This document shows, one piece after another, positions 1,322 to 64,000 of a stretch of DNA of 64,000 bases. The position numbers and the translations under genes are program-made. The stretch's first letter is position 1. Each line of letters opens with the position of its first letter. Source of the DNA: the human T2T-CHM13v2.0 reference genome, Homo sapiens; NCBI RefSeq assembly GCF_009914755.1, contig NC_060941.1; one strand, 5' to 3'. A model generated the notes under the pieces. That model searched no databases. It was given only the letters and a program-made list of their open reading frames with translations, and was not told where the DNA came from.

Positions 1322-1775
1322 GCCCTCACCTCTGCAGGTGGGGCTCAGGCCCAGAGACTGGGATCAGCTGGCTCAGGCAGGTAGGGCAGGGCTGGGAGCC
1401 GGGGAGGGCAGAGGGCAAGGCTTGGGACAGGCAGGAAGCAACAGGCAAGTCCCGGCCATGTGGGAGGATAGCAGGCAGTGTTCAGCTCTTGCCACTGATG
1501 GAGGTTCAAAGTAGGCGGATGGACTCATGCCTTTGGCTGCTACCTTGAGCCTGTTGTGGTCCGGGCCATGGGGCAAGGATGAGTTTGAAGAGAACCAGGT
1601 GTAGTTTGACCACATTTTCTAGGCTTGGGGATGGCGAGGTGGTCGTGCTGGGGCATGAGGGCAGTGTCGGAGGACGCCCAAGGGAGAGGCGGTGCTCGGA
1701 AACATCCACTCTGAAATGCGAGTCCCATCCCCAGGTGTGGGAGAAGTGCTGATCTGTTCTGGTTTTCTGTTTCAG

Positions 1776-1868
1776 CTCAGGTCCTGGTTCGTCCCCTAGC
1801 CCAGGAGGATGCTGTGGGAGCTGCAGCAGCGGCAAGAGGGAGAATGGGGGGAAGCAGCACTAGAGAAG
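1776..1868 (+). other. PRCD: PRCD non-coding 3' UTR exon (probable)
   Basis: Acceptor ttttctgtttcag ends at 1775 (alternative AG at 1779-1780); donor aag|gtagac at 1868/1869. Boundaries inferred from splice signals. Confidence 0.6.
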
Positions 1869-2159
1869 GTAGACGCCTCCCTCTCAGCCCGGGACCTGCC
1901 AGTCTCCCCTTCCCCCAGGCCCTGGGTGTGGGCTCCTGAGCAGGACCTGGCTGGGCCTGGCAGAAAGAGCAGACGTGCTCGCTGCTCTCGGACGGGCTTC
2001 CTTCCCTCTGAGTTCCTGAGGCTCCTCTGAGGGACTGCTGAGCCTGAGAAAGCCTAGGATGAGGGACTTGCTGGGTCCACCAGGCTAATTCTGGGGCAGC
2101 CAGCAGCCCAGGCAAGAGGCAGGAATAAGTAAGGAGTGAGGAGACCCCAGAAGCAAGGG

Positions 2160-2335
2160 ACGGCTGATAGCTCACATTTACTAAGCAAGGGCTTCCATTC
2201 ATTCTGTAATTTAATCTTCAGTCACCCACAGAGCCTGGTAATGTTATTATCCACAATTTCTAAATGGGGAAACACAGAGACAGGTTAAATAATTTGCCCA
2301 ACATCACCTAGCTAGGAAGTGGAGGCTCCCAGGCT
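2160..2335 (-). mobile_element. MIR SINE fragment
   Basis: MIR-core-like aatggggaaacacagagacaggttaaataatttgcccaacatcacctagctaggaagtggag. Confidence 0.65.
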
Positions 2336-2549
2336 CACACTGGAGCTGCAGAGCCCACGCTCCTACCCACCATGGCAGGCGGCCTCCCCCTGGAACCTAA
2401 CAGTTTGCAGGGGTTGGGGGTGGTTTGCTGGCCTGGCCAACTGCCTGTCAGCCCAGGAGCTATTCTGTTAAGCCGCCACTTGTGGTCCGAGGTGCTGGTG
2501 TCGGTTTGCCACAGTGGCACTCGCTTTTGTGTCATTTGCCTTTCCCCAG

Positions 2550-4125
2550 TTCCCAGAGCTCATCCTGTCACTGGCTGCTCTGCTGAAATTATCAATAAGA
2601 AATGCCAGTTGGATCTGTGACATGTCTGCCTGCAGCTGGATGGGAGCAACGGACAGCTTGTCCTCCGAATGTGTTTTCTGTATGTGTGCAAGCGCGTGTG
2701 TTCCAAACGGGCAGTAGCGTGTGGGAAGGAAAAAGCCTGACACTTGTTTTTATCAATTTGCTGATGCTCAGTCCCGGCGGCTGCCTCCTTTGCCCCCAGC
2801 TGCTCTGCCATTTCTCTCTTTTCAATCCTGCATGATCCTGAGCAGAGATAAAAGCAGATTTCCGCTTCTGCTCCCAGATCCAGGAGCAGACCCTGCAGGC
2901 AGCTGCTCCTGATGTCTCACAGCTATTAGTCTTCAAAAACCCCCCGTGCCTCTGTGCACACGCGTCTCTCCTCCCCAGCCAGCCCCCCTCCCAGCCCAGC
3001 GGCGATGTCTCTGCCTGGCTGGCCCGTGCCCTTGACTTCCAGGCAGTAGAAGATGGAGTTCTCTAGACAGCAGCACTTCAGCCGCCACTCTGCCTCTGAA
3101 GGGAAGGAAGGGAAAGGGTGAGGGATGCCGCAGAGCAGAGGGAACCGCTGGGGAGGCGCTCAGGGTGGGGGAGGAGGTGCACCCCGCTGGGGAGGGCCTG
3201 CTGGTACCTCGGGGAGCCTGGCTGGGGTGTGTGCGAAGGCAGTTCTGTGGGAGCCTCTCAAAGTAGGGCAGGCAGGAGGCAGGGGGAAAGTCACACTAGG
3301 GAAGGAGCCTGCAGAGGCAAAGCCAGAGCGCCAGCCTGACCCAGGCCGTGAGCCCGTGATCGCCTGTCTCAGCTCCTGTCAGCCTGTCTCTCTCTTTGGA
3401 GGCATCGGCCTTCCTGGTGACAGGCCTGTCAGGCTGAGGGCCAGAGGGCACTGTTCCCGGGACCCAGTCTGTGTTCCCCGATCCTATCTGCATTTATTCT
3501 CTATTTGCCATGTTCCTGTCACCTCATCCTTGCTGCCATTTCCGAGTTGCTCATCTCCTTCCACTGGTCTGAGGAATTGTCAGGCCAAGGTCATGGAGCT
3601 GGCTCACGGCCCAGACGCACTTCCCCAGGGCAGCGCCCCTCCACGCCACTGTTCCGAGAACCTGCGCAGGAGGTGGTGGCTGCTCCAGGGATCCATCCAG
3701 AGGAAGGGCGGGAAAAAGAGAGGAAGGGGCTGCTGGCGGCCAGCGGGGCTGTGGCTGCCTGGGCTTGGAGGTTGCCTGGGCAGCTGGGGTGCCGTGTGGG
3801 CCGGGTGGGGGGGCTGTCTCCCCCAGGGAGCAGGCTGGCTTTGGTGGGAGCAGATTGTGTTTACACCTTCCCCGCACACCCAGCCCACGCTCGCCTCTTA
3901 TTCCCGGGGCCTCTCCCACCCCTGGGCTCTCTGCGCAGTCTGCACATTTGCAGCTCCTGCTGCAGAAAGTTACCTCTCTCAGCCTAGAGCTCCCCACAGA
4001 AGGCTCCTGGGACCCGGGTGCCCCTTCCTTGGCCCACTGGCTCCCATCACAGGGCTTAGTGTGAAGCTCAGGGCAAGGGTGGACCTTTAAATGGGGGAAT
4101 TAAATCCTGACTATGACACTGTCCC
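2550..4125 (+). other. PRCD: PRCD terminal 3' UTR exon (probable)
   Basis: Acceptor ttgcctttccccag ends at 2549 (alternative AG at 2555-2556); ATTAAA poly(A) signal at 4099-4104. Confidence 0.5.
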
Positions 4126-20450: not shown

Positions 20451-21044
20451 AAGGGTTTGGCTCCATGGTTTTTTTTTGTTTTTGTTTTTTTTCCCCTTTT
20501 TTTTTCCCTCAGCATATCCTGCTGAGAGCCCAGTCTAGAGCATCATTCCTCTAAAACGTGAAAAGCAAATGAGTGATTGTCCTGCTTTCTCTAGTCCTTT
20601 GATTATGGCTCTGAGGATACAGGCTGTATGAGGTGGCAGGAATGCACAAGTACCCAGGATTTGATTTATGCCCTTATTGTGGAATGAAAGTGCTTGTTAC
20701 ATATTTCAAGAAAATGAATGCGCTCTTAGAAACAGATTGGAATGTAGGATGTATGCCAGCTTGTGGCAATGAGAATGCTTAATGACTCTGACCTTGCCTC
20801 TGCTCCAGGGTCCTGACATTTAGGGGAAACCACGGCTGTTTGGTTTCTATGTGCTTTGTTAAGGACGCCAGGGAGGTCTCCTAAGTTTGTAGCTTAGATC
20901 CTGTCTGAATGTCACGACTGGCATGTGAGCAAGAAAGAAACCAAGTGGTGCTGGAGAGTGGGGTGCCCAGCTTTGTTCCCACTGGAATGCCAGGCTTGAA
21001 GTGCACACAGATTGCCTTTCTTTTCTGTTGAAAGGGGAGGTGTG

Positions 21045-21353
<309 letters not shown>

Positions 21354-22338
21354 GAAAGGGGAGGTGTGTGCAAACTCTTTGTATTTAAGGTTGTGTTTTT
21401 GCTGGACACCAAAGAAGCTGTATTCTGGGTGAGATTTAATGAGCCTAAAAACTGGCCCCAGTAGTTTACAGCCTGCAAGTAAAACAGTGAAAAGGGTAGC
21501 TTATCAAGTGGTTATTGTCTGCTGAGTGGACTTGACTACAGAACTCAAGTAAACCATAAGATTTGACTTGAAATGTTTCTATCCAGAGGGAGTGCTTTCT
21601 GATAGTTGTTTACTGGCCTCTTACCAGAAACTGCTCCCTCAGAGATACTGTCTCCTTAAAATGAGTCATCCTGGATCTCCACCAGCCTGCACCAAAATGG
21701 TGTGATAGTGCCCCGTTACGCTCCCCCAACGCGCACATGCCTGCCGGTGGTGAGAGTGAGTGCTCTTGGACTGACTGCCTGTTCTCCCAAATTAGTTGTT
21801 ATATAGCATTCAGTTTTGAGTCACTTCCTTGGCTGTTACTTCAAATTATTCTTCTGTTTTATAGGTTAGCTCCCAGCGATGCCAGATGGGATCAGCACAG
21901 CCCTGCCTCTGCTGCTAATTGTTCCTCTAAAGTAATCGCCATGCGTTCTTTGGGCTTCATCTTTAAAGGAATGAAGCAACTGAGATTATTCTGGAAAACC
22001 TTTTGGCAGTTAGTGAAATTAGAGTACAACTAAGAACATTTTCAGACCTCCACTGTGGATGACCTGGGTATAATCTCACAAATCGATGGGACTGCAAGGA
22101 TTGTAAACTGAAATGAACATGATTATACTCTGTTGGAAGAGCCTAAGAGGAAACTGATGCCATGAGTTTCAGAGAGTAATGCTTAACCCCAGTTACACAG
22201 GATGCCGTCTTGTGTTTCCTCTTGTTTAGTTACCCACTACAGTGATTTTGTGATCTGCTAATGGGTTGCCACCCACAACCATTGCTTTAGCACTTTTACT
22301 TCAAATCAATGAAGGATTGATAAAAGTTCTCCTGGTGT

Positions 22339-22428
22339 CTCCGCAGAGTGCCTTCCAGGAACAGATCTTTGCATAGAATATCAGTGGTTTCCTTTTTTGT
22401 TTCAAATAGTGGTCAGAAAATACCCAGT
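22339..22428 (-). pseudogene. Decayed partial copy of ST6GALNAC2 exon 9 inside the SNHG16 last exon
   Basis: Manual alignment to 24882-24975: about 74/90 identical plus one 4-nt gap; translation WVFSDHYLKQKRKPLIFYA vs [19 protein letters not shown]. Confidence 0.85.
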
Positions 22429-22489
22429 GTTGACTCACCAAGGCAATCAGCTTCCTTTTTCCCTTTTTTTGTTTTTTTTTTAACATTTT

Positions 22490-23169
22490 ATATTTTTGCT
22501 TTATTTTATTTTATTTTATTTTATTTTATTTTATTTTATTTTATTTTTTGAGACGGAGTTCCACTCTGTCGCCAGGCTGGAGTGAAGTGGTACAATCTTG
22601 GCTCACTGCAACCTCCACCTCCCGGGTTCAAGCAATTCTCCTGGCTCAGCCTCCTGAGTGCTGGGACTACAGGCGCGTACCTTCTTTAGTAGAGACTGGG
22701 TTTCACCATGTTGGCCAGGATGGTCTCTATCTCCTGACCTTGTGATCTGCCTGCCTCAGCTTCCCAAAGTGCTGAGATGACAGGTGTGAGCCATCAGACC
22801 CAGCATTTTTTTTTTTAATTTAAATTTAAATTTTTTTTCATTTTTTTGAGAGGTTTTTTTTGTTTTGTTTTGTTGTTGTTGTTGTTGTTGTTTTTGAGAC
22901 AGTCTTGCTCTGTCACCCAGGCTGGGAGTGCAGTGGCATGATCTCTGCAACCTCTACCTCCCAGGTTCAAGCAATTCTTGTGCCTCAGCCTCCCAAGTAA
23001 CTGGGACTACAGGTGCACGCTACCACACCTGGCTGATTTTTTTTGTTTTAGTAGAGACAGGGTTTCAACCATGTTGCCCAGGTTGGTCTCAAACTCCTGA
23101 GCTCAGGCAATCCACCCGCCTTGGCCTCCCAAAGTGCTAGGATTACAGGTGTGAGCCACCACACCCAGC
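22490..23169 (-). mobile_element. Two antisense Alus within the SNHG16 last exon (~22490-22804 with (TTTTA)n tail; ~22853-23169)
   Basis: Alu consensus, reverse orientation. Confidence 0.9.
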
Positions 23170-23311
23170 TATTTTTTCTTTCGTTTTTTAATTTTAAAGT
23201 TGGGGGGGGTCTCAATTTGTTACCCTGGCTGGTCTCGAACTCCCGGACTTAAGCGATCCTCTGGCTCCAAGCCCACTACCAGTCTCAGGTTTCTTTACTA
23301 AAAGATCACTA

Positions 23312-23437
23312 CCTTTTTTTCTCTTATCTGCTGCCATGTGAGATGTGGCTTTCACCTTCCGCCATGATTGTGAGGCCTTCCCAGCCACGTGGAACTGTAA
23401 GTCCAATAAACCTCTTTTGTAAATTAAAAAAAAAAAA
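23312..23437 (+). mobile_element. THE1/MST (ERVL-MaLR) LTR fragment ending in poly(A)
   Basis: ttccgccatgattgtgaggccttcccagccacgtggaactgtaagtccaataaacctc followed by an A run. Confidence 0.75.
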
Positions 23438-24070
23438 TCACTATTTAAGATACTAGGATGGATTGTGACTGTTGAGGAGTACTTACATATCCTACATTTG
23501 ACTACATTATTTCCAAACCAAGTATTCCATCCAAAGGAACATACTGCTATCATAGAGACCAAGGAGGGACTGTTTAAGGTTGCCAAGGTGAAGCGAGCTG
23601 AGAGGCTTTGTCCTCGTGCCAGTAACTCTGAAATCTCTCTTAATTCCTGCTGTCCAGGCAGCAGAATGCCATGGTTTCCCCAAGTAGGTAGCTGCTTTAG
23701 CAGTTAAAGCCCAAATGTCTGTTCTGTTGATCAGAGGTCTCTGAATTTCTGAAGTGGTGTTTCGTTTCTGGTGACTGAGTTAATCCTTTACAATCCCTCT
23801 TGTAAAGTGTGCTAATAGAAAGAATCCACCTTTCAAAGCTGCAGAACCAGACCGTGCCCTAAATTGACCAACGTAACTGATGTGCCTCAGGAAGTCTCTT
23901 GCCAGCTGTCCCTGTGAAGACCCCCCTCCTCCCCCCCCAGCTGCTGCCTTGCACACTGAAGCATCTCAGACTGTGCAAAGCCGTGTAGTCATCAAGACAG
24001 TAAATCCCAGGGCTTGGTTAAGTGCTGTGTGATAACTTGTTTGGATGAGACTTAACTTAAAACCACTTAC

Positions 24071-24076
24071 AATAAA
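24071..24076 (+). terminator. SNHG16: SNHG16 polyadenylation signal AATAAA
   Basis: Canonical hexamer at the end of the last exon. Confidence 0.7.
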
Positions 24077-24136
24077 CTTGGGAAACTACCGTCAGCTGAG
24101 TTCAAATTTACTGACGCCATGATATGAGGATGAAGG

Positions 24137-24142
24137 TTTATT
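24137..24142 (-). terminator. ST6GALNAC2: ST6GALNAC2 polyadenylation signal AATAAA (distal; a proximal one is at 24381-24386)
   Basis: TTTATT on the + strand ~700 nt past the stop codon. Confidence 0.7.
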
Positions 24143-24838
24143 ACCTGGTGACATCATCCTGTTGGTGACAAGGTGGTGATACATCTCTAATGGGACTTCA
24201 GGCAGGCTGCCAAGCAACTAACCCCCATCAAGTGCCAGACCCTCCCAGTGTTCTGAGAGTCATCTCCATGCTAAACAGCCTGCGTTTTATATGATTTCTC
24301 TACCCAGCCAAAAAAAAAAAATGGTCCATCATGTACGCAGTTATCTAGTCTTAAGTTATATTCTGGCTTTTTTCTCCCACTTTATTATGGAGCAGAAGTA
24401 AGCCTATCATGTTCTTAGAAAGGCTCTTAAGAGGTGTCCTGGAGTCCTTGAATCACTTTAGCATCTGGGGTAGGATGTGCCACCAGGAGGATTTGGGCTG
24501 GAGCGTGTGTGTTTGCCTTTGACCTGGACTGCTGTCTGATCTTGCTGAACACTCCACCGACATTTCCTAAAGTTGCTCAGTGCCAATCCAGCAAAGCAGT
24601 CCATTTTCCCTTGGCCAAGATTGAGATGTATTGTTTTAGATACAGAAGAGTTCTTGGATGAGCCAAGGACAAGCTGGGGTGTCCTATATTGAACAGACCT
24701 CGATGAAAATCTTGAATTCACCCCAGTGCCCTCTGTTGGCAAGGGAAGGTGAAGATTGAAAAGTTAAAAAAGCTTTTGGCCACTTGAGAGGATCAGGGCC
24801 GCAACTCTTGAAGAAGCAAAGGGCTCAGTGCATTGGGG

Positions 24839-25006
24839 TCAGCGCTGGTACAGCTGAAGGATGCCGGCCTTGTGCAGGTCCCTCCACAGGGCAGCTTCCA
24901 GGGACAGATCGTGGTTTGCATAAAATATCAATGGCTTCATTTTTCGTTCGAAATAGTGGTCGGAAAATTTCCAGTAGTTGCTTGTGATGAATCCATAGGC
25001 ACTGAC
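24839..25006 (-). CDS. ST6GALNAC2: ST6GALNAC2 exon 9 (VSAYGF...YANHDLSLE...LYQR*; end of sialylmotif S, motifs III and VS)
   Basis: Acceptor ccag|GTCAGT; 168 nt; GT29 motifs HY and HxxxxE. Confidence 0.96.
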
Positions 25007-25310
25007 CTGGGCAAGGATAGTCGCTGGATTAGTATTTGTTGAGCGTCTAGTGTGTACAGACACTTGGGTGAAGTGACATGAGTTTAGAAAGGTGTCCGTC
25101 TGCTGAGGTGAGGATAATGGTCTAGGGCTTATTCCCACTTAGCAAGTGGGGAGATGGATTCAGGGGTGACTCACTGTGTCCCCACTTGGCATAGCTGGTG
25201 ATTGCCAGAGCTGGATTTGGAATTCAAGGGTGGAGGCAAAAGCCCATTACTACTCTCTCCATCCTAACTGGGGACTGCAGTCAAGACACTCCTGCATCAG
25301 AATAGGAAAA

Positions 25311-25573
25311 GGCCCTGTGTGGTGGCTCACGCCTGTAATCCCAACACTGGGAAGCTGAGGTGGGAGGATCACTTGAGCTTGGAAGTTTGAGACCAGCCTG
25401 GGCAACATGGTAAGACCCTGTCTCTACAAAAAGTAAAAAAAAAAAAAGAGCTGGGCGTGGCAGTACATGCCTGTGATCCCAGCTACCCAGCTACTTGGGA
25501 AGCTGAGGCAGGAGGATCATCACACCACTGCACTTAAGCCTGGGTGACAGAGTTGAGACCCTGTCTCAAAAAA
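25311..25573 (+). mobile_element. AluJ SINE
   Basis: Diverged Alu. Confidence 0.85.
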
Positions 25574-25921
25574 GAGGGAAAAGATTTAGGTGTGAGTTGT
25601 GGAGAGGCATTTGGCCCCCAGCTCTCCATACCAGCTTTAGCATGGGTCACGGCCTCTCCTTGAAAGCTGCTGCTTGGCCCCTGCCTCCATGAGCTTCACG
25701 TGGGTCATATCCCATCAGGAATGACTCTTAACGGTGATTTCAAAGTAGTTGCATGTGGGAGGCTAAACCTGCTGCCCTACCCCAGCTCTAGGATGTCCCC
25801 ATAAAAGAATGTCCCTATTTGGCCCAGTATGTTGAGGACTTTGGCTTTCACAAGGGCAGTTTGATGATTTGAGCCTTAAATACCATACTGAGTGGCTGCC
25901 TTGGAGAAGAGTGAAAGAAGG

Positions 25922-25985
25922 AAGCCTGGGGCAGGTGTCAGGAGCCAAGGCAAGCCTGAGGCAGGTGTCCGGAGCCAAGGCAAGG
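25922..25985. repeat. 30-bp tandem duplication (2 copies, each with a CAGGTG E-box)
   Basis: aagcctg(g/a)ggcaggtgtc(a/c)ggagccaaggc x2. Confidence 0.9.
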
Positions 25986-26185
25986 CTGGCCCAGGACCTG
26001 TCCTTCAAAGGCCCCAGGGTTGTGGGCAAGGAAGTGAGCAGTACCAGCAGCACTCTTGGAACTGGGGATTCCACGAACAGAGGCCAAGAGTCCCAGCTCC
26101 GAGGTAAGGGATATCAGGGGATCCTGTTGGGTTCTGTTATCCTGTGTTCTGCCGGCATGGGCTTCTGGAAGAGAAGGCCTCTTAC

Positions 26186-26285
26186 CTGGTCACAGGTATG
26201 CAAAGCTGTCAGCAGCATGAGAGCCCCGGTACTAGGCATATATAGGTCTCCAAAATGTGTGTTAATCAACTTTGATTTCAAGAAC
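26186..26285 (-). CDS. ST6GALNAC2: ST6GALNAC2 exon 8 ([33 protein letters not shown]; sialylmotif S)
   Basis: AG/GT boundaries, 100 nt, PSTG...C motif. Confidence 0.96.
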
Positions 26286-26877
26286 CTGGAAGCAAAAAGA
26301 GACATTTCAGCTCACTAGCTTGATGGCTATCATCACACTTCACAACTACACATTCAAATAGGTGGGAAAACTTCAAAAACTGAGGGCCTTCTACTCCAGT
26401 CAGTTCTTTATTCGGTCCAAGTGGACTAAATACAAAGATCTTTGAGACCTTAGGTAAGGTTGGGGGAGGGGGTGGTGAGAAAGGAACCACAGGTTCCCCC
26501 TTTTGGCAACAGCTTGTTTTCACCCCAAGCTACTAAGTAACCACACTGCCAAGGGCATAGGTGGCCTGTTTATTTAGCCTGAGACTGCAGTTTCTCTCTA
26601 CTCCACATCTTGATTAAGTAGGAATCACGTGTGAGGGACAGGGAGCTCAGACCCTGTGACCGGACCCACACAGTCCAAGAGTGAGGCCAGGGTGTGACCA
26701 CGGGCTCTGCCCTCAGGCCTGAGTTCACATCGAGCTGTGCCAGGCCGATCACCTGACCTCTCAGAGCCTGTCTTCCTCTGTAGCACGGGACTAATTAGAG
26801 GGGCTTCATTTGCCTCCCCACATCCACACACCCCTCTCCAACTGCTCCCTGCCCTGGGATTCGAGCCTCTGGTCCAC

Positions 26878-27040
26878 AGCAGGGTTTCTCAGTCTCAGTG
26901 CTGTTGACACTTGGGGCCAGGTGCTTCTTGTGATGTTCAGCAGCATCCCTGGCCTCTACCCACTGATGGCACTTGCCCCCACCACCCTTGTGACAACCCC
27001 AGACGAGGACCATATGCACATCCACATTGAGAACCCCTGG
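26878..27040. mobile_element. MER20-like DNA transposon
   Basis: cagggtttctcagtctcagtgctgttgacacttgggg...ttgagaaccc terminal inverted repeats. Confidence 0.6.
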
Positions 27041-27445
27041 CAGGAGGGAGGGAAGGGGGTTGAGGCTGGTCCCCGGGTTCCTTCCGGCACCTTGTGTTGG
27101 CTGTGTTTGGGCCTGAAGGTTCTGATGCCCTGCTGCTGACGGCGCCACTGCTGCTGTGCACCTTATGGTCCCAGCTCCCAGTCTGTGCCTTTGTATAAAC
27201 CTCCTTGAGTTATCCTGAGTTTCCTGTCCATTTCCTGGTGACTGACATATATCACCCTCCCTCTATCAAGGTGCTAAATAAAACAGTAAATGAAGTGACA
27301 GTGCTTTGCACACAGCACTCGGGACAGTGGAGCTCTGGTTATCGGTCAGTGCGTGGGGCTCGTGCGAGGGCGCTGACTGGATGTGGGTGGGTGTGTAAAA
27401 GGGGGAAGGAAGGGGACGCTGTTCTTCAGGCACCCCACTCCGTAC

Positions 27446-27529
27446 CTTTCTGTCAGGTAGCTGATGAAGTCCGGATGTAGCAGCTTGAATTTACTGGCAG
27501 AGGCTTCTGGTCCAAAATAGGCGTGCGGC
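27446..27529 (-). CDS. ST6GALNAC2: ST6GALNAC2 exon 7 ([27 protein letters not shown])
   Basis: cctag|GCCGCAC ... GAAAG|gtacg; 84 nt, in phase with neighbouring exons. Confidence 0.96.
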
Positions 27530-28381
27530 CTAGGACCCATGATAGAAGTGGACAGAGCGCCCAGAGCCGTCGTATTGCAAGGGGGAGATGGAGGGGAGGG
27601 TCAGGGCGCCGGAGTAGCCGCGGTACCCTGAGCGGTAGGAGCGGGGCTGGGAGTAGTAGCGGGAGAAGGGGGTGTAGAAGGTGGCAGGCAGCACGTTGGG
27701 GACCACGTGCGGCTTCCCGCTCACCAGGACCTCCACGGGCGGGGTGTAGGAGAGAGAGGAGGGGGGCATGAACAGACCGGGGGGAGTTGGGAAGGGGCAG
27801 TTAAACTGGGGGTGGTGGGGGGGCGGGGGAAGGAGAGGTAAGTAGAGTGAGTCAGGAGGGGGTGGGGGCTTCCGGGCAGGGCAGGGAGAGGGACAGGCAA
27901 AGCATGGGTTTTGGGGAAGTGGTGCTGTGGGGGGCTGGAAAAAGGGGGGCTCCTTCAGAAAGCGGGGCACATAGGGGGTGATATAGGACGGGATGTTCTG
28001 AATTGGCCCGATATAGGAAGATGAGGTGGCAGGGCTGTAGAAGGAGGACTTGGGGGGCACAGCGGGGGTTAGGGAAGGGTTTCGAGAGAGGGATTTGAAA
28101 CCAGACTGGGAGGGAGATTTGGAGGTGGGTGGGGTGGGGGTTTGGGCAGCCCCGCGGGGCACGTGTTGGACCTGAGGACTGGGGTTCAGGGACGAAGTCC
28201 GGGAAGAGGGCTGTGAGGCATTTGGGGTGGGAGGGTGGGAGGGGGGCCGGGAGGAAGAGCCCCGAGTGGGGGAGGGGGAAGGGGCAGGCTGCTGGCCTGG
28301 AGGGGTGACAATGTTGTTGGAACGGGACTGGGAGGGAGACTGGGTAGGGGATGGATTAGGGGTGTGGGAAGGGGAGCTCAT
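27530..28381 (-). CDS. Candidate nested gene: 283-aa Pro/Ser/Tyr-rich protein in ST6GALNAC2 intron 6
   Basis: Non-repeat ATG-initiated ORF; in-frame TAA 6 codons upstream; 14 Tyr codons with no internal TAA/TAG; the stop TAG is the last 3 nt of intron 6. Confidence 0.6.
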
Positions 28382-43579: not shown

Positions 43580-45100
43580 CTCCCTGAGGCTGCCGGGCCC
43601 TTCCCTCCTCCCAAACCCAGACTTCGCACGGCTTGGTCCGCCTTTCTTAAGCTAAGCGAAATCGTTTTGCGGCTTCTTCAGTCACCGGAACCACCACCTG
43701 CTAGAGGCCGGCTCCCAGGTTCTCCTCGTGGGACACCCAGGAAAGTGCCTAGGGAGGAGGAGGGAGTGGAGCGCAGGACGCGGCGCGGGGAGGAGAACGC
43801 GGATGGAGCCAGGAGTCACCCCTCTTTCCCTCGGGCGCCCGCCTCTTCGCGGATCGCGCCCGCACTGGGCTTATCCAGACACGGCGAGCGGAAGCCGGGG
43901 AGAAGGGAGCGGGCGCGGGGCGGACAGAGACCGCAGCGGGCGGGAAAGGCGACTGGCCGCGGCCCGACGGAGGGTCCCCGCGAAGTTGGAAACCGGAGAC
44001 TTGGGCCCCTGCCCAAAAAGCAGAATCTGACGTTACCGAGGGAGAGTTCCCGACAAAAAAGGAAGTTTTTATCTGCTTCGGGGACCCAGCCAGATTTCGA
44101 CAATAGAAAGTGTACTTATCAGGCCGGGGAGGACTTCACCAACAAGGGGCACCGGGGCGGGTCGCCAGTGCACAGGGGCGAGGTCTTCCTTGGACCCAGG
44201 CAAAGGCCGCGGGGTCCGGGCAGCGCGAGGTCAAGGCTGGGAGAGGGTTCTGGCGACAAAGGGCCGCGGCCGAGTCCTCGCTGAGAGCTGCCCCAGAGGG
44301 GTCCACGCGGAGGTTGGGCTGAGGGCTGCGGGCCGCCGGGGAGCCCTGGGCTGGGGACCCTCCCCGCGCCCTGGTCGCCCCTGCGCCCTCCCGCTCTGCG
44401 CTCGGCAGCCCCTACCTGGCTCCGGCCGCTGGCCCCGGGTACCGCTGCACCGCCGAGAAGTACAGGGCAAAGAGGAGCCCCGAGCAGGCAGCCGTGAGCA
44501 GGAGCAGCAGCCAGAAGAACGACCCGCGCGGGAGCCCCATACAGCCCCGGCCCGCGAGCGCCCCGTCCGCTGACGTCCCAGGCAGAAGGGAGAGAACCGG
44601 GTGGGCCGGGTGGCACTTGCGGAGGCGGCCGTCTTGCCCTGCCCCGCCCTGCCCGCCGGGTGCCTGCGGCGCCTGCCCGCCCGGCAGCTCCCTCTCGGCC
44701 CCGGCTGAGTGGCCAGAGGCTGCCGCACCCTCGGGAGCTGGGCGGCGGGTCCCCCGGGGCTGGAGTGTCGTCCCGGCGCCCAGAGCGCGCGCTCCTTTGG
44801 CCCTGCCCCCTGCCCGGGGGACTTCGGCAGCGGCCACTCCTGCCACTGCGCTCTCTCCAGAGCCCAGCCCCGGGAGGCCGCCAGTCTCGGGTTGGGCAGG
44901 GCGCTTTCCTCGCGCCGTCCGGGGCTAGCTAGGCGCGGGTAGACGCCGCCACCTGCTGCGCTGGCTGCGCTCTGCCCTCTGCGGGCCCGGCACTCGGCCT
45001 CTAGACTCTGTGGCGGGTGGGCGGCGGCCGGGAGGAGATGTGCCCGGCTCCCTCCAAAGGACCCTCAGATCTGTCAGTCTGCGGACGCCAGGACAGCTGG
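43580..45100 (-). promoter_or_regulatory. ST6GALNAC2: ST6GALNAC2 CpG island/promoter
   Basis: CpG-dense region spanning exon 1; GC box GCCCCGCCC at 44641-44649; CTCF-like GCAGCAGGTGGCGGC (minus strand) at 44945-44959. Confidence 0.85.
44416..44540 (-). CDS. ST6GALNAC2: ST6GALNAC2 exon 1 coding part (MGLPRGSFFWLLLLLTAACSGLLFALYFSAVQRYPGPAAGA; type II signal anchor). Gene product: alpha-N-acetylgalactosaminide alpha-2,6-sialyltransferase 2
   Basis: ATG at 44540; donor CCAG|gtagg; 125 nt. Exons 125+61+175+169+139+104+84+100+168 = 1125 nt in one continuous frame. Confidence 0.96.
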
Positions 45101-45329
45101 GAGGGGGCGGGCAGGGTGGAGGAGCAAAACCCGACAGCTCAGTCTCTGGGCTGGCGGTAGAGGGGGGAAAAGGGGGTGAGGTGGGGAGCTTGCCGTGATG
45201 GGTTTCGTGGGGGAGCTAAGGCTGTCAGCGCTTATTTGGTAACCATCCAGGGTGGCCAGTCCCCTCAATCGCATTGAGTTCCTTTCACAGAACGAGGCCA
45301 GTCAGAGAGACCACCTGAAATGTTCAGCA

Positions 45330-45662
45330 CAACGGGTTCCCAAACTTATTGGCACCAGGGACTGGTTTCCTGGAAGACAATTTTTCCACGGAGGGGGGTG
45401 GGGGTGGGGGGGTTGGGGATGAAACTGTTCCACCTCAGATCATCAGGCATGAGTTAAGATGCTCTCATAAGGAGCCCGCAACCTAGATCCCTGGCATGCG
45501 CATTTCACAAAAGGGTTCGCACTCCTTTGAGACTCTAATGCCGAGGCTGATCTGAAGGAGGCGGAGCTCAGGCGGTAATGCTCCTTCCCCCTCCACTCAC
45601 CTCCTGCTGCGATGCCCTGTTCCTAACAGGTCTCGGACCAGGCTTGGGATTGGGGACCCCTG
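45330..45662. mobile_element. MER1-family hAT DNA transposon
   Basis: cccaaacttattggcaccagggactggtttc...gaagacaatttttccacgg ... ttggggacccctg. Confidence 0.75.
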
Positions 45663-46294
45663 GTCTAGCAGGCTCCAGCATCAGAAAGGGCTGGGAAGCT
45701 CAGCACCCGTGCTCTCTAAGTGGAACACTCCCTGGCAGTGAGTGATGGATGAGATGGGTGTGCTTCAGTGGCCACTGTTCGGCAAGCTGTGACATGCGGC
45801 AGGCTGTGACATGCCCCAGACTCCCAACTGTCAGCAGGCTGCAAGGATGAGAGGGACCTAGGCTACCGTGTCACGTGCCTTTGGCTCTAATCTGTTCTTC
45901 ATGTATCGGAGGAAGTCTGGGTGCAGCAACAGGTGCCTGTCTGATTGCAAGGCTTCCCGAAAACCTCCCAGGGCCTGGGCCTGTGGTCAGGAATGGCCAT
46001 TCAGTCCATCCAGTCTCAGTACTCCTACCAAGTCAGGGTCACTGGAGGTCACTCACATTGGGCCAGTTCTTTCCTTCACCCCAAGACTGCTCAGCAGAGC
46101 CAGACTCATCTTGCTACCCCGCAGATGGGCACTACTTGGAATTTATGGTGTCACGACTTTCATTTCAATCTTTATGGGTTTACTTGTCAAAATTCCTGTA
46201 GATGTTACTTATCCCCTGATCACTGGCTTCTCACATTTCCTCAGACCTTCTCTCTGTGCCCATAAATATCCCTCCTAGCCCTTGCTCTCAGTAA

Positions 46295-50774
<4,480 letters not shown>

Positions 50775-50879
50775 TCATTGTTGGGGCTGTATAATGGGGA
50801 TATGAGGGTGCATTACAGTATTCTCTCTACTTTTGTATATATTCGAAATTTTCCCTAACAAAAACCTAAATTTTTCTTT

Positions 50880-51450
50880 TTAGCTGAAATATGCTTCATT
50901 AGATATTTCAAAACTATAAGGTTATCCTTAACTTCAATCAAAGTCTTTAAAAGTATATATACATGCTTTTCACATAAGATGAACTATGGATTACGGATTT
51001 GCAAAACCAAGAGATCAAAACTTCGAGTACTCTATGTTCTAAAACAACCACGTGTAAGCATTTTGTAAAAACATATTTTTACTAAAATCAATTTATTTCT
51101 CAGTATCTGAAACTGGCATGAATGTCGAGCAAGTTCCTAATCAAAATGTATTAGATGTTCTAATTATGTGTCAGAGGCTGTTTTTGTCATTTCAATCAAA
51201 ACCATTTTTAGATGATTGATTATTTTATGAAAAAAAGCAATGATGAAAATTGTTTCAGTTGTATTTCAAGAGTTTATAAAAAGACAAATTTATGCATTGA
51301 ATTGAAGCTGAGTAGAAACCGAGTTTGGAAAAAGAAAATACGTTGATGGCTTAAATTTGAATATGAACCGGATATTCTAGATCAGTCAGAAAATGGATTA
51401 TTAGCACTTGAGATTCACGAAATTAGAGCCTACTGCTTTTCAGGGTTTAA
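50880..51450 (+). mobile_element. AT-rich probable hAT (Tip100/Zaphod-like) transposase fossil
   Basis: Broken translation IFTKINL/SQYL..GMNV...KKSNDENCF...LSRNRVWKKKIR*WLKFEYE resembles hAT transposase segments (pattern recall only). Confidence 0.4.
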
Positions 51451-51567
51451 GAAGTTTCTTTTTTATTTTTTTTTTTATAAACTCATTAATGGGAAGACTT
51501 TTTTTTTAACTTCTTGAAAATGTCAACATTTTGAAAAAAATGTTATTTTATCATAAATGAGAAACTA

Positions 51568-51860
<293 letters not shown>

Positions 51861-51894
51861 AAACCATTTTTGTTTAATTTCATTTCTACATGGT

Positions 51895-52450
51895 CGTCAA
51901 ACGTGCCTATCCAATGAAGCCTTCATAGAAGGCCCAAGAAGACAGAGTTTGGGGAGCTTCTGGATAGCGGAGCATGTGGAGGTTCCAGGAGGGCAGGGTG
52001 CCCAGGAAGGGCATGGAAGCTCCGTGTCCCTTCCCCATACCTTGCCCTATGCATTTCTTCATCTGTATCTATTGTGATATCCTTTACAATTAAACTGGTA
52101 AACATAAGTGTTTCCTGCCTCTGTGAGCCACTCTAGCAATTTAATTGAACTTGAGGAGTGAGTCATGGGAACCCAAATTTATAGCTGGTTAGTCAGTAGC
52201 ACAGGTAATACAACCCCTGGGGGTTGTGATGGGAATTGGAAGTGGGAGGGAGCAGTCTTGTGGGACTGAGCCCTCAACCCGTGATCTGATGCTGTCTCCA
52301 GGCGGATGGTCTCAGAAGTGAACTGAATTAGAGGGCACCCAGCTGGTGTCCGCTGCAGAATTGATTGCTTGCTTGTTGGTGGGGAGAGATCTGCACACAT
52401 CTGGTCACAGAAGTCTTCTGTGTTGATTGTTGTTGAGTGAGAGCAGAGGA
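51895..52450 (+). mobile_element. MER21-family LTR
   Basis: gagcttctggatagcggagcatgtggaggttccaggagggcagggtgcccagg...cagctggtgtccgctgcagaattgattgcttgcttgttggtgggg. Confidence 0.7.
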
Positions 52451-52774
52451 AAAATGCGTGTAGGAAATGCGCACGAAGGAAATGTGCACGTGTGGGAGGG
52501 TGGGGCAGGGCCGGGAGCCGGATCCTCATCTTCCCTGGGAGACATCAGTAGATAATCTAAAACATAATTGTCAACGCACACATGTAATTTCGAAGTATGG
52601 AGGTAAATGCCAAAGGCTCAGCTGGAAGATTTGAAAGTGGCTGACTCTGCATAGATGAAATAGCAGGAGAGTAGCTGGGGACTACCAATTTTGAAAAACA
52701 ATATTCTCTCAGGGAATTCACAAGTTGAATTTTATCCTCAGGCCCAGCATCTAGAAAATAAGCCCAAGCTCTGA

Positions 52775-53333
<559 letters not shown>

Positions 53334-53837
53334 CCATTGTTTTCTTTATTCCCCATGTTCCATGTTTTCTTCTTTTATCATTTCCTTCTTGTTTGAAGAG
53401 CTTCCTTTAGTTATTCTTTCAGGGCAGTTCTTCTGGGGACAATTCTCTTAGTTTTCTTCATCTTGTCTGGACGCTACTGCTTTCCTTGGGTCAGTCTATC
53501 TTCGTGGCAATACCACATTGCCTTAATTACTTTAGCTACGTAAACATCTAGATATGTGTGATGTAAGCCCTCTAGCTTTGTGGGATTTCTTCAGTATTGC
53601 CTTGGCTATTCTTGGCCTTTTGCATTTCCAAATGTTTTAGAATCAGCTTGTTATTTCTACAAGAATCCTCTTGGGATTTGGTTGGGATCACATTATAGGT
53701 TAATGTGAGTAAATGGGATATCCAGAAACATTATATATAGTTCCATGTATTTGGGTTAATTTCTCAATAATATTTCATAGTTTTCAGTATGCAATTGTGC
53801 TCATTTTTCCGTAAATGTATACCTAGGCGTTTGGTCC

Positions 53838-54609
<772 letters not shown>

Positions 54610-54706
54610 TTATTTTTTCATTGCTGACATATAGAAATGCAATGGTTTGTTTAATTACCTGTGTATTGAGATTTTGCTAAATTCACTTTTAAATTTATGT
54701 ATTTTT

Positions 54707-55882
<1,176 letters not shown>

Positions 55883-57387
55883 AAGATAAACAGAGTTTCT
55901 TACAACTGTGCATGGATAGATCAAGAGTCCACTGGGCTGGTGGCAGATCCCTGGTGGCAGCAATACAATGGCGTTGTCCCAAATGGACAGTTCCAGCAGC
56001 AAGATCTTGGATGTAGTCTCACTGCCTGGTCACATGACCACTTATTTGAAGTCAACTTTATACCTTATGAAAGCACTCAGAACTGGATTAAGAAACAGAG
56101 GACGTAACTGAGACTTTATGTGTGTGTAGGCGTGGGTGTGTGGTGAGGGCAGTGCCACCCAGTGACCTCCAGCTGGTACTCTGAAACTGTGCATGCCTCC
56201 CCAGCCTCCAATCTACTCTGGCTGAGTCCTCTTGGGAAACTCCCAGAGGCTGCACATTCCCCCAGAATGCAAGACCAGGCAAGCTCTCCTTTTTGCTGCT
56301 GGTCCCTAGTGACAATCTCTCACCTCAGCACCAAAACAAAGCAAGTCCTCACCTGCTCCTTTCCCCAGGGAGCCCTGGATCTCAGATGTACTTGCCAAGT
56401 CCTGTGTGATTGCCTCCCTGGCTGCTGTCTTACTTCAGAGAGGCAGTTGTGGGGACAGACAGAGTCAGGGACATCTGCTCCAGCCACTGTTCCCCGAGAA
56501 TCCCGTAGCTGGGTTCCCTTGGAATAAAAAAAGGAAGTGGGGAGGAATGCCAAGGAAGAGGACACTTCGAACATCTCTGAGCTTCACACACTCCAAACGG
56601 CAGTAGAGCACTTAGGAGAGGGGACTCCAAAGCCCAACAATCTCAGCTCTATTTGTTAACCGTGTGAACCCAGGGGAAATTACTTAGACTCTCTATGCGT
56701 CAGTTTCCTCATCTATAGCACAGAAATGATGATAGTACCAACTTCATGAGGATTGCTGTGCTCATTAAATGTGCTTGCAACAGTTCTGGAAACAGGAAGC
56801 ACTATACAAACGTTGGCTGATACAGTCCTGAACAGACTGAAAAGTGATGTGTTGGGGACAGACCTAGGCCTTGAGAAAGACTGGGCTCTTTGTGGAGGAA
56901 GAACTACACTGCCAGGCATTGGACAGGGGAAGAGCTGGACTCTGCCTGCAAATCTGGTGTCACCAGATGTGTTGGATTGCTGACAAAGATGGCATTGAAT
57001 GCACAGCCCTTTGCAATGTGACTTGGTCACTCCTCCTAACAAGAGGCTGAGTCTGTTTACCCACCTGCAGAATGTCGGCAGCTGCATGGGTAACCCCAAG
57101 CCAGAGCAGAAGGAAGCTGATCCCAGTACAAATTGCTGATCTGTAAAATCATAAGCAAATACATGGTCATTCTTCTAAACCTTCAGATTTTGGAAGACTT
57201 GGAGGGCAGCTTCACAGGTAGTGAAGTTGTTCTTGGGCCCTGTCTTTAGGGTAGAGCTGCTGCTTACACCTGGGGAGCCCCAGGAGTGGTGACATTTTCT
57301 TCCTGGGCTCCAACAGGTGCCTCATGATGTGCTGTTTGTTCATCCCTTACCCACAAAGATGGAAGCTGTTATTTCTTATATCACTTC

Positions 57388-60058
<2,671 letters not shown>

Positions 60059-60146
60059 ATACAGTCAACAGGACATGTGAGGACTGCCATGGAGACCAGC
60101 ATGAATGCAACACTATCCTCTGAGTACACTTTAGACTTTCCATTAC

Positions 60147-60875
60147 TATCACCAGAAAGGGGTCCCAATCCAGACCCCAAGAGAGGGTTCTGGGATCTCA
60201 TGCAATAAAGAATTTAGGGTGAGTCCAGAGTAAAGTGAAAGCAAGTTTGTTAGAGAAGTAAAGAAACAAAAGAATAGCTATTCCATAGGCAGAGCAGCCC
60301 CAAGAGCTGCTGGGTGGCTATTTTTTTTATTTATTTTTATTTTTAGTAGAGATGGGGTTTCATGGTGTTAGCCTGGATGGTCTCAATCTCCTGACCTTGT
60401 GATCCACCCGCCTCCGCCTCCCAGTGGGTGGCTATTTTTATGGTTATCTCTTGATCATATGCTAAACGAGGAGTGGATTATTATGTTTTCCAGGAAACGG
60501 GTGGGGATTTTTTGGAAATGAGGTTTCCTCCCCCTTTTAGACCATATAAGGTAACTTCTGAACGTTGCCATGGCATTTCTAAGCTTTCATGGTGCCGGTG
60601 GGAGTGACTTTAGCATGCTAATGCATTATAATTAGCATATAATGGGCAGTGAGGACTATTAGAGGTTACATTTGTTGCCATCTTGGTTTTGGCTGGCTTC
60701 TTTACTGCATCCTGTTTTATCAGCAGGGTCTTTGTGACCTGTATCTTGCGAGCTCCTATCTCACCCTATGACTAAGAATGTCTAACCCCCTAGGAATGCA
60801 GTACAGCAGGTCTCAACCTCATTTTACCCAGTCCCTATTCAAGATGGAGTCACTCTGGTTGAAGTGCCTGTAACA
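60147..60875 (-). mobile_element. MER41B solo LTR (ERV1) with a short internal Alu fragment (~60321-60424)
   Basis: Homologous to the MER41A at 13648-14497 but with the extra GAS-bearing segment and the TATGCTAATTATAATGCATTAGCATGC segment; 4-bp TSD TTAC (60143-60146, 60876-60879); Alu fragment TSD tgggtggctatttt. Confidence 0.85.
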
Positions 60876-60995
60876 TTACTAACACAAATATCTGTCCTGC
60901 TTCTGAATCTCTCTTGATCTCTCCAATGCACCCTCGACCCAGGAGCAACTTTTGGACCCTTTGCCTACTCCTCACTGCAAAAAAGAACAAGATCA

Positions 60996-61406
<411 letters not shown>

Positions 61407-61659
61407 TTAGTTGTCTAAGTCCCAGGCATGTGAGAAAAGAGGAAAAATAATGTTAAATCCGTGAGTAACTGTGTGAGCCCTTGCACCAGTGACTCTGAAA
61501 GGCGGAAGAGAAAGAGAGACTGGGGTTGTTGAAAGATAAATTATGCTGCAACGTTTAATGGATAAGCCATGGTTTACCCACCGGTAAAACACTCAATTCC
61601 TGGCCCAGGCTTTGAATCATTGCAAGGGCACTCCTTGGGAAGAGGACATAGTTGGAGGC

Positions 61660-62071
61660 TGTTAGTCTGTTTTTACATTGCTATAAATACCTGACAGTGG
61701 ATAATTTATAAAGAAAAGAGGTTTAATTGGCTCATTGTTCTGCAGGCTGTACAGGAAGCATGGTGCCCACATCTGCTTGGCTTCTGGTGAGGCCTCAGGG
61801 AGCTCTTATTCATGGCGGAAGGTGAAGTGGGAGCAGGCATGTCACTTGGAGAGAGAGCAATAGAGAGAAGGGAGAGGTCCCAGACTCTTAAACAACCAGA
61901 CCTTGCATGAACTAACTGAGCAAAACTCACTTATCACCAAGGGGATGTTGCTGAGCCATTCATGAAGGATCTACCCCATGATCGAATCACCCCCCATCAG
62001 GCCCCACATCTAACATTAGGAATCATGTTTCAACATGAGGTTTGGAGGGGACACACATCCAAACCATATCA
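61660..62071 (-). mobile_element. MSTA-type (ERVL-MaLR) solo LTR
   Basis: aatttataaagaaaagaggtttaattggctca...catccaaaccatatca. Confidence 0.85.
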
Positions 62072-62136
62072 GAGGCCGTAGAGTTTGGAAGCCTGAACTT
62101 GCACTTGGGGTTTTTGGTCTAAGCTGGAAGGAGTCA

Positions 62137-63685
<1,549 letters not shown>

Positions 63686-64000
63686 CTAGATAATACCATG
63701 TGACCATATATAAGAAAGGGATGTCTGTTTCGGCTGTTTCAGGGTTGGGCTTATTCCCAGAATTAGAGGCAACTGTGTGAGTTAAAACCACCTAGAAAGG
63801 CCTTCGTATTAGGTGTCCTCTCCCAGAAGTAGAGCCTGAGCCAGGAATTTGGGGCATGTGGTTTACTGAGGGAGGGCTCATCAGGAAGCATCTATAAGGG
63901 AGAGAAGAAAAGGATAATCAAGTGAAGTCTCAGGTAAAGGCTTGGCTTGACCTGCCAAGATCTCAAGCATAGATCCCAACACAGAATTGTCCTGTCCCCT

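What the first reader, a model, noticed from the sequence alone, without database searches (positions are those of the whole stretch)
22339..22428. SNHG16 last exon carries an antisense fossil of ST6GALNAC2 exon 9
Seen: 22339-22428 aligns to 24882-24975 in the same orientation (about 74/90 identities by hand). A 4-nt deletion removes the His codon of sialylmotif VS (ANHDLSLE) and shifts the frame. Because SNHG16 is on +, its mature RNA has ~90 nt imperfectly complementary to ST6GALNAC2 coding mRNA even though the genes do not overlap. Inference: a remnant of a tandem duplicate sialyltransferase absorbed into the lncRNA, possibly allowing lncRNA-mRNA pairing with its neighbour.
Basis: partly seen in the sequence, partly recalled or inferred. 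Interest (0 to 1): 0.7.

Follow-up and report, generated by a model that had tools for sequence, protein, structure and literature searches.

The report
Dead sialyltransferase exon inside SNHG16
The last exon of the non-coding RNA gene SNHG16 contains a decayed backwards copy of the final coding exon of its neighbour ST6GALNAC2; it is a genuine evolutionary leftover and most likely has no function.

Summary
Window 22327-22432 (perhaps 22313-22447) is a decayed copy of the coding part of ST6GALNAC2 exon 9 (24870-24980). It has 85 of 106 aligned bases identical plus 1-nt and 4-nt deletions (blastn E 1.4e-17). The 4-nt deletion removes the catalytic His codon of sialylmotif VS and breaks the frame.

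Genome-wide, ST6GALNAC2 exon 9 is its best match after itself and a chr9 retrocopy of SNHG16. It lies inside SNHG16 exon 4, antisense. That retrocopy shows the spliced RNA carries it.

No other ST6GALNAC2 exon remnant exists nearby. Only 1.7 kb separates the relic from the end of ST6GALNAC2, so it is an orphan exon, not a visible whole-gene duplicate. Mismatches fall evenly over codon positions, as in neutral decay. Divergence suggests an age near the placental radiation.

The predicted SNHG16/ST6GALNAC2 RNA duplex is strong (-124 kcal/mol; about -63 after opening costs), but that follows from the similarity. I found no evidence of pairing or function, in print or here.

A second orphan relic, an 86% copy of ST6GALNAC1 exon 7 with its intron flanks, lies at 45763-46038.

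Verdict: a real, apparently undescribed, probably neutral relic. Interest is low to moderate.

The parts
22327..22432 (-). Core of relic 1: a decayed copy of the ST6GALNAC2 exon 9 coding sequence (residues ~328-365, sialylmotifs III and VS). It is read on the minus strand, so it is antisense within SNHG16 RNA. A 1-nt deletion lies between 22428 and 22429, and a 4-nt deletion (loss of the motif VS His codon) between 22367 and 22368.
   Evidence: 85/106 identical, E about 1e-17. tblastn 15/25 residues, E 3.9e-6.
22313..22447 (-). Possible full extent of relic 1. Weaker similarity runs towards both ends of the exon 9 coding part, with an 8-mer match at 22313-22320. The 5' side ends at the T-rich tail of an Alu.
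   Evidence: Alignments, and sequence read. The weak ends are not significant on their own.
24870..24980 (-). Parent segment in ST6GALNAC2 exon 9 (coding part 24839-25006), equal to mRNA nt 1036-1146.
   Evidence: hub annotation.
21865..24094 (+). SNHG16 exon 4, the long terminal exon that contains relic 1 at mature-RNA nt 771-876. Its end is 29 bp from the convergent 3' end of ST6GALNAC2 (24123).
   Evidence: Hub annotation. One search gives the positions in the mature RNA. One search shows the chr9 retrocopy joins exons 1-4 and includes the relic.
22449..23203 (-). Alu block inserted directly beside the 5' side of relic 1, followed by other repeat debris to about 23420. It was already present when the chr9 retrocopy was made.
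   Evidence: Hub mask list; sequence read (the retrocopy aligns through it).
45763..46038 (-). Relic 2: an orphan genomic copy of ST6GALNAC1 intron 6 end, exon 7 and intron 7. It lies 1.2-1.4 kb upstream of the ST6GALNAC2 start. The splice donor GT is changed to AT and the exon has a 1-nt deletion.
   Evidence: 85.7% over 203 columns, E 1.7e-59; its only other genome match is ST6GALNAC1 at 86%.

Best explanation
Window 22327-22432 (perhaps 22313-22447) is a non-coding relic of a local, DNA-level duplication that copied at least the coding part of ST6GALNAC2's last exon to a spot about 2.5 kb downstream. The offset was about 1.5 kb before later repeat insertions. The copy has decayed neutrally since roughly the time of the placental radiation. 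It lost the catalytic His codon and its reading frame. It is now passively transcribed, in antisense orientation, as part of the long repeat-rich terminal exon of the snoRNA host gene SNHG16. As a result, mature SNHG16 RNA carries about 106 nt of imperfect complementarity to the ST6GALNAC2 mRNA. I judge this to be a by-product with no function of its own. Shown: homology, parentage, orientation, inclusion in the spliced RNA, and the absence of other remnants. Inferred: the mechanism of origin, the age, and neutrality.
For: Homology: blastn E 1.4e-17 and 85/106 identical. Parentage: the relic is closer to ST6GALNAC2 than to ST6GALNAC1, 91/138 vs 63/138 and 82/107 vs 54/107 on core columns. A genome search with the relic's peptide gave 5 matches: itself, the chr9 retrocopy, ST6GALNAC2 exon 9 (E 0.0015), and two at noise level. 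The forward search with the exon 9 peptide gave 6 matches, including the relic at E 0.0033. Orphan status: there were no other exon remnants in 1-24122 or in the 104-kb extended region apart from relic 2, and no colinear flank similarity in 20500-24122 vs 24123-27600. Neutral decay: identities by codon position are 28/35, 30/36 and 27/35, so there is no third-position excess. Of 25 sites where the relic differs from ST6GALNAC2, the independent chr2 pseudogene has the ST6GALNAC2 base at 12, the relic's base at 4, neither at 3, and a gap at 6, so most changes lie on the relic's branch. Not a functional sialyltransferase exon: the frame is broken, the His is gone, and none of the 67 PF00777 genome matches falls on it. 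In mature RNA: the chr9 retrocopy joins SNHG16 exons 1-4 at 98.1% over 935 columns and includes the relic with 2 differences in 161 nt. Precedent in the same locus: relic 2 is another orphan exon copy.
Against: Neutrality is inferred from one genome only; I could not examine other mammals. The codon-position test rests on 21 mismatches and has little power. If a 1.5-kb unit had been duplicated, some 3'UTR similarity might still be detectable, yet none was found. So the copied patch may have been short, or the relic may be older than estimated. The predicted RNA duplex is strong, so a pairing effect cannot be excluded on physical grounds. One paper reports SNHG16 and ST6GALNAC2 falling together in one patient group and proposes an Alu-based SNHG16-promoter contact (PMC9716354, discussion passage).
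Confidence: 0.72

Rival explanations
1. Functional trans-antisense element. The relic lets SNHG16 RNA base-pair with the motif III-VS coding region of ST6GALNAC2 mRNA. This would alter its stability, translation or editing, as described for pseudogene-derived antisense RNAs.
For: The predicted duplex is -124.2 kcal/mol, against -39.8 +/- 5.1 for 300 shuffled targets and -204.7 for a perfect complement. It was the best of 1764 tile pairs between the two mature RNAs. The net value is about -63 kcal/mol after local opening costs of 30.5 and 30.7. The relic is in the spliced RNA.
Against: The energy follows by construction from 80% identity. The decay pattern looks neutral. In the 7 papers that name both genes I found no report of such pairing in the passages I read from 3 of them. 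None appeared in the listings of 17 papers with SNHG16 and sialyltransferase, or in the 8 with SNHG16, 'RNA-RNA interaction' and duplex (passages of one read). Supplements of interactome studies were not searched.
Confidence: 0.06
2. Last surviving exon of a complete tandem ST6GALNAC2 paralogue whose exons 1-8 were later deleted.
For: The locus is a tandem array (ST6GALNAC1, ST6GALNAC2) and holds a second orphan exon copy, so duplication followed by loss has occurred here.
Against: No remnant of exons 1-8 was found. Only about 1.7 kb lies between the relic and ST6GALNAC2's 3' end, so a large and precisely placed deletion would be needed. There is no third-position excess to suggest a period as a working exon.
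Confidence: 0.13
3. Decayed alternative 3'-terminal exon of ST6GALNAC2: a tandem exon duplication that was once spliced from exon 8.
For: It has the same strand, lies just downstream of the current last exon, and covers about the same coding span.
Against: No splice acceptor or polypyrimidine tract is recognisable on its 5' side, where the sequence is purine-rich in the coding sense and abuts an Alu tail. All 120 listed mammalian ST6GALNAC2 proteins align over the same exon 9-encoded segment, and none shows an alternative version of it (3 of the 120 end differently or early, P0043, P0059 and P0094).
Confidence: 0.06
4. 5'-truncated processed retrocopy of ST6GALNAC2 mRNA that landed next to its parent, or a chance similarity.
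For: The match is confined to exon sequence. A processed pseudogene of this gene does exist on chr2 (named ST6GALNAC2P1 in PMC10225777).
Against: The exon 8 sequence is not adjacent, nor does it appear after the Alu block. Landing by chance within 3 kb of the parent in the same orientation has odds of roughly 1 in a million (my estimate). Chance similarity is excluded by E 1.4e-17.
Confidence: 0.02

Closest known systems
ST6GALNAC2P1 (chr2 pseudogene of the same gene)
   Same: It is also a dead ST6GALNAC2-derived sequence, with similar divergence from the parent on the same columns (75/96 vs 82/107 identical).
   Different: It is a processed copy that runs through several exons without introns (residues 133-372 contiguous, with stops). 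It sits on another chromosome and is named in print (PMC10225777). Relic 1 is a single exon, next to its parent, and neither listed in the hub's RefSeq table nor found in my searches.
lncRNAs that are fossils of former protein-coding genes (Hezroni et al. 2017, PMC5577775; loss relics, PMC10195156)
   Same: A lncRNA exon carries recognisable remains of a coding exon.
   Different: In those cases the lncRNA descends from the dead gene and is read in the same sense. Here the relic is antisense, and the host is a snoRNA host gene with its own promoter. Neither SNHG16 nor ST6GALNAC2 occurs in the main text or held supplements of either paper.
Pseudogene-derived antisense RNAs acting on the parent mRNA (for example the PTENP1 antisense RNA or the snail NOS pseudogene; recalled, not checked here)
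   Same: An RNA carrying pseudogene sequence complementary to the parent's mRNA, acting in trans.
   Different: Those cases have experimental evidence of an effect, and this one has none. Here the complement is a 106-nt, 80% match embedded in a 2.5-kb RNA known for other roles.
Convergent-gene natural antisense pairs
   Same: SNHG16 and ST6GALNAC2 converge, with ends 29 bp apart (hub table). Read-through of either would give perfect antisense overlap.
   Different: The annotated transcripts do not overlap. The complementarity discussed here comes from a duplicated exon, not from shared DNA.

Membership tests
Functional GT29 sialyltransferase coding exon (Pfam PF00777) | Open reading frame continuous with the domain | tested here: not met
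   1-nt and 4-nt deletions break the frame relative to exon 9.
Functional GT29 sialyltransferase coding exon (Pfam PF00777) | Sialylmotif VS with the catalytic His (H....E) | tested here: not met
   The His codon is removed by the 4-nt deletion. The role of the His is taken from PMC10225777.
Functional GT29 sialyltransferase coding exon (Pfam PF00777) | Match to the family profile | tested here: not met
   None of the 67 genome matches to PF00777 lies on relic 1 or relic 2.
Duplicated-gene (non-processed) pseudogene fragment of ST6GALNAC2 | Significant similarity to the parent, closest to this parent among paralogues | tested here: met
   E 1.4e-17. 91/138 identical vs 63/138 for ST6GALNAC1. 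The reverse genome search supports this.
Duplicated-gene (non-processed) pseudogene fragment of ST6GALNAC2 | Intron or flank similarity showing a genomic rather than mRNA source | tested here: inconclusive
   No flank similarity was detectable for relic 1. The genomic source is argued from its position next to the parent and the missing exon 8 junction. For relic 2, intron flanks are clearly copied.
Processed (retro) pseudogene | Adjacent exons joined without an intron; poly(A) tail; dispersed location | tested here: not met
   There is no exon 8 sequence beside the relic or beyond the Alu block. It lies 2.5 kb from the parent.
Whole tandem gene duplicate | Remnants of several exons in colinear order | tested here: not met
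   Only exon 9 is represented.
Trans natural antisense RNA pair | Extended complementarity between two mature RNAs | tested here: met
   106 nt, duplex -124.2 kcal/mol, net about -63.
Trans natural antisense RNA pair | Duplex formed in cells and an effect on the target | not testable with these tools
   No interactome or perturbation data are at hand. Nothing was found in print.

The most novel reading that the evidence does not exclude
The relic is kept because it tethers SNHG16 RNA to the ST6GALNAC2 mRNA. It would form an imperfect duplex of about 100 bp over the motif III-VS coding region that tunes the mRNA's stability, translation or editing. Under this reading a snoRNA host gene would regulate its neighbour through a captured dead exon of that neighbour. 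The second relic upstream of the ST6GALNAC2 promoter might be a related regulatory capture.
Probability: 0.06. Interest if true: 0.55.

Novelty: new member of a known kind. Interest (0 to 1): 0.25.

Why it matters
As it stands, this is a small annotation point. There is an unlisted orphan pseudo-exon of ST6GALNAC2 in SNHG16, and a second one, from ST6GALNAC1, upstream of ST6GALNAC2. Together they show that the ST6GALNAC1/2 locus has repeatedly made short local copies of single exons.

It has practical consequences. Probes, primers, siRNAs or antisense oligos aimed at the end of the ST6GALNAC2 coding region may touch SNHG16, and the reverse. Short reads from this stretch, and from the chr9 SNHG16 retrocopy, can be misassigned. 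Correlations between SNHG16 and ST6GALNAC2 should be read with this in mind.

If the pairing were real, it would add a clear, testable case of a lncRNA acting on its neighbour through a captured pseudo-exon.

Tried and rejected
- Other ST6GALNAC2 exon remnants. tblastn and blastn over window 1-24122 and 44600-64000, and over a 104-kb extension reaching ST6GALNAC1, found none apart from relic 2.
- Flank homology. Sensitive blastn of 20500-24122 vs 24123-27600 gave only Alu-to-Alu and short A-rich hits besides the relic.
- Pfam scan of the genome. Both relics fall below detection.
- Genome DNA search with exon 9. It found only itself, so that tool does not see 79% matches. I therefore relied on the peptide searches.
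- Search for an intact closer paralogue in the protein database with the relic's 41-residue open frame. No candidate was found, which is weak evidence because the method is word-based. A first try with 28 residues was too short.
- Placing the relic among 120 mammalian ST6GALNAC2 C-termini. The best identity, 15/25, is with primate sequences and the lowest is 10/25. The informative sites are few and prone to recurrent change, so this is not decisive. The second peptide was cut in the wrong frame and is ignored.
- Dating by shared residues: rejected as unreliable.
- I did not use structure prediction, the complex predictor or RNA family scans, because they do not bear on a dead exon.

Full report
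**The observation**

I read both stretches and aligned them. They are clearly alike in the same orientation.
- blastn of the ST6GALNAC2 coding sequence, assembled from the hub's coordinates, against window 1-24122 gave one strong hit. It covered 22339-22432 at 78.8% over 99 columns, E 1.4e-17. The other 11 hits were 12-18 nt with E 0.96 or worse.
- tblastn matched residues 326-350 with 15 of 25 identical, E 3.9e-6. The other 4 hits had E 1.7-9.9.
- The best local alignment spans 22327-22432 vs 24870-24980. It has 85 of 106 aligned pairs identical, a 1-nt gap and a 4-nt gap.
- A review of GT29 enzymes places the catalytic His in sialylmotif VS (PMC10225777, passages read).
- Weaker similarity suggests the copy once covered nearly the whole coding part of exon 9, about 22313-22447. 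Those ends are not significant on their own.

**Whether there is a better source elsewhere**

The window lies in a searchable human assembly.
- A DNA search with 131 nt around the relic gave 2 matches: itself, and a 98% copy on chr9.
- The chr9 copy is a processed retrocopy of SNHG16. Exons 1-4 are joined. Mature-RNA nt 19-947 align at 98.1% over 935 columns. Nt 1014-1763 align at 96.5% over 762 columns in the opposite orientation. That layout is what L1 twin priming produces (recalled).
- So the chr9 copy is a daughter of SNHG16, not a source of the relic. It also shows that the spliced RNA, relic included, existed in the germ line.
- A genome search with the 55-residue exon 9 peptide gave 6 matches:
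  - ST6GALNAC2 itself
  - ST6GALNAC1 (58%, E 4e-15)
  - a chr2 pseudogene (50%, three stops)
  - the relic (60%, E 0.0033)
  - its chr9 daughter
  - one noise hit
- The reverse search with the relic's open frame gave 5 matches: itself, chr9, ST6GALNAC2 exon 9 (E 0.0015), and two noise hits.
- The genome DNA search cannot see 79% matches, since exon 9 found only itself. The peptide searches therefore carry this point.

**Parentage**

| Comparison | Identical / aligned |
|---|---|
| Relic vs ST6GALNAC2 exon 9 (joint alignment) | 91/138 |
| Relic vs ST6GALNAC1 exon 9 (joint alignment) | 63/138 |
| Relic vs ST6GALNAC2 exon 9 (core columns) | 82/107 |
| Relic vs ST6GALNAC1 exon 9 (core columns) | 54/107 |
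| ST6GALNAC1 vs ST6GALNAC2 exon 9 | 100/168 |

The copy was therefore made long after the two genes split.

**Is it part of a larger duplicate?**

- No other ST6GALNAC2 exon remnant was found in window 1-24122 or 44600-64000. None was found in a 104-kb stretch extended to include ST6GALNAC1, apart from relic 2 described below.
- A more permissive blastn of 20500-24122 against 24123-27600 found only the relic as a colinear match. The remaining 11 hits were Alu-to-Alu or short A-rich words.
- Geometry matters. The relic is on the minus strand like its parent, so exons 1-8 of a complete copy would have to lie between 22447 and ST6GALNAC2's own 3' end at 24123. That is about 1.7 kb, and about 755 bp of it is masked as repeats (hub table; Alu ends read).
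- What is visible is thus an orphan last exon. A whole-gene duplicate would need a large later deletion.
- A retrocopy would need the exon 8 sequence next to it, which is absent. It would also need a very unlikely landing beside its parent.

**Decay pattern and age**

- Identities by codon position are 28/35, 30/36 and 27/35. There is no third-position excess that would point to a spell as a working exon. With 21 mismatches the power is low.
- I used the independent chr2 pseudogene as a third lineage. A review calls it ST6GALNAC2P1 (PMC10225777). Of 25 sites where the relic differs from ST6GALNAC2, the pseudogene has the ST6GALNAC2 base at 12, the relic's base at 4, neither at 3, and a gap at 6. 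Most changes are therefore on the relic's own branch.
- The Jukes-Cantor distance to the parent is 0.28 on the core columns. For the chr2 pseudogene it is 0.26.
- Using the usual estimates of neutral change on the human lineage (recalled), this suggests an age around the placental radiation, with wide error.
- I compared the relic with 120 mammalian ST6GALNAC2 C-termini. These were the best 120 of 194 proteins with E <= 0.001. The highest identity, 15/25, was with primate sequences and the lowest was 10/25. This is too little to date the event.

**The proposed pairing**

- SNHG16 RNA nt 771-876 and ST6GALNAC2 mRNA nt 1036-1146 are predicted to form a duplex of -124.2 kcal/mol.
- For comparison, a perfect complement gives -204.7, and 300 dinucleotide-shuffled targets give -39.8 +/- 5.1.
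- The duplex was the best of 1764 tile pairs between the two mature RNAs.
- Opening the two segments in their local context costs 30.5 and 30.7 kcal/mol. That leaves about -63.
- Pairing is therefore physically possible, but any 80% antisense copy would score this way.

**What is in print**

- 7 papers name both genes. I read passages in three:
  - One proposes an Alu-based contact of SNHG16 with the ST6GALNAC2 promoter and reports both genes lower in one patient group (PMC9716354).
  - The other two mention the genes separately.
- Searches for SNHG16 with sialyltransferase gave 17 papers; I saw the listing only.
- SNHG16 with 'RNA-RNA interaction' and duplex gave 8 papers. Passages of one (PMC11260338) describe miRNA sponging.
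- Two systematic papers on lncRNAs derived from dead genes mention neither gene, in text or held supplements.
- I therefore found no description of this relic and no evidence for function. Supplements of RNA interactome studies were not searched.

**A second relic**

- Window 45763-46038, on the minus strand, copies ST6GALNAC1's intron 6 end, exon 7 and intron 7. It lies 1.2-1.4 kb upstream of the ST6GALNAC2 start.
- Identity is 85.7% over 203 columns, E 1.7e-59. It has a 1-nt deletion in the exon, and the splice donor GT is changed to AT.
- Its only other match in the genome is ST6GALNAC1.
- Because intron sequence was copied, this is a genomic patch, and it looks younger than relic 1.
- It shows that this locus makes short single-exon copies, which fits the reading of relic 1.

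**Verdict**

A whole duplicated gene is not shown, and the functional idea remains an untested possibility. The most likely account is a neutral pseudo-exon that happens to lie in SNHG16's terminal exon.

Noticed in passing
window 45763-46038 (minus strand): An orphan 86% copy of ST6GALNAC1 exon 7 with its intron flanks, lying 1.2-1.4 kb upstream of the ST6GALNAC2 start. The splice donor is mutated and the exon has a 1-nt deletion. It is not in the hub's gene table.
   Followed up: yes
L002 (G000:C9:115376323-115379453), about 1442-3131: A processed retrocopy of SNHG16 at 96-98% identity. Its 5' part (mature nt 19-947) is inverted relative to its 3' part (nt 1014 onward), and about 66 nt are lost at the junction. 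This layout is expected from L1 twin priming. It already contains the Alu block of exon 4.
   Followed up: partly
L005 (G000:C2:84039481-84042600), about 1500-2308: An intron-less ST6GALNAC2-like pseudogene with several stops, covering residues ~96-372. It matches the ST6GALNAC2P1 on chromosome 2 named in a 2023 review.
   Followed up: partly
window 24094-24123: SNHG16 (plus strand) and ST6GALNAC2 (minus strand) converge with annotated 3' ends only 29 bp apart. Any read-through of either would give perfectly complementary RNA, a far stronger antisense relation than the relic.
   Followed up: no
window 27530-28381 (minus strand): The annotated single-exon gene LOC122455342 (testis-specific serine/proline-rich protein) has a coding region that ends exactly one base before ST6GALNAC2 exon 7 (27446-27529). 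This is an odd abutment of two coding annotations.
   Followed up: no
window 22495-22545: A (TTTTA)n microsatellite in the tail of the Alu that abuts the relic, inside SNHG16 exon 4.
   Followed up: no
protein P0001: A 916-residue predicted protein from the thrush Turdus rufiventris holds two sialyltransferase C-terminal units. It is probably an annotation that fuses the tandem ST6GALNAC1 and ST6GALNAC2 genes.
   Followed up: no
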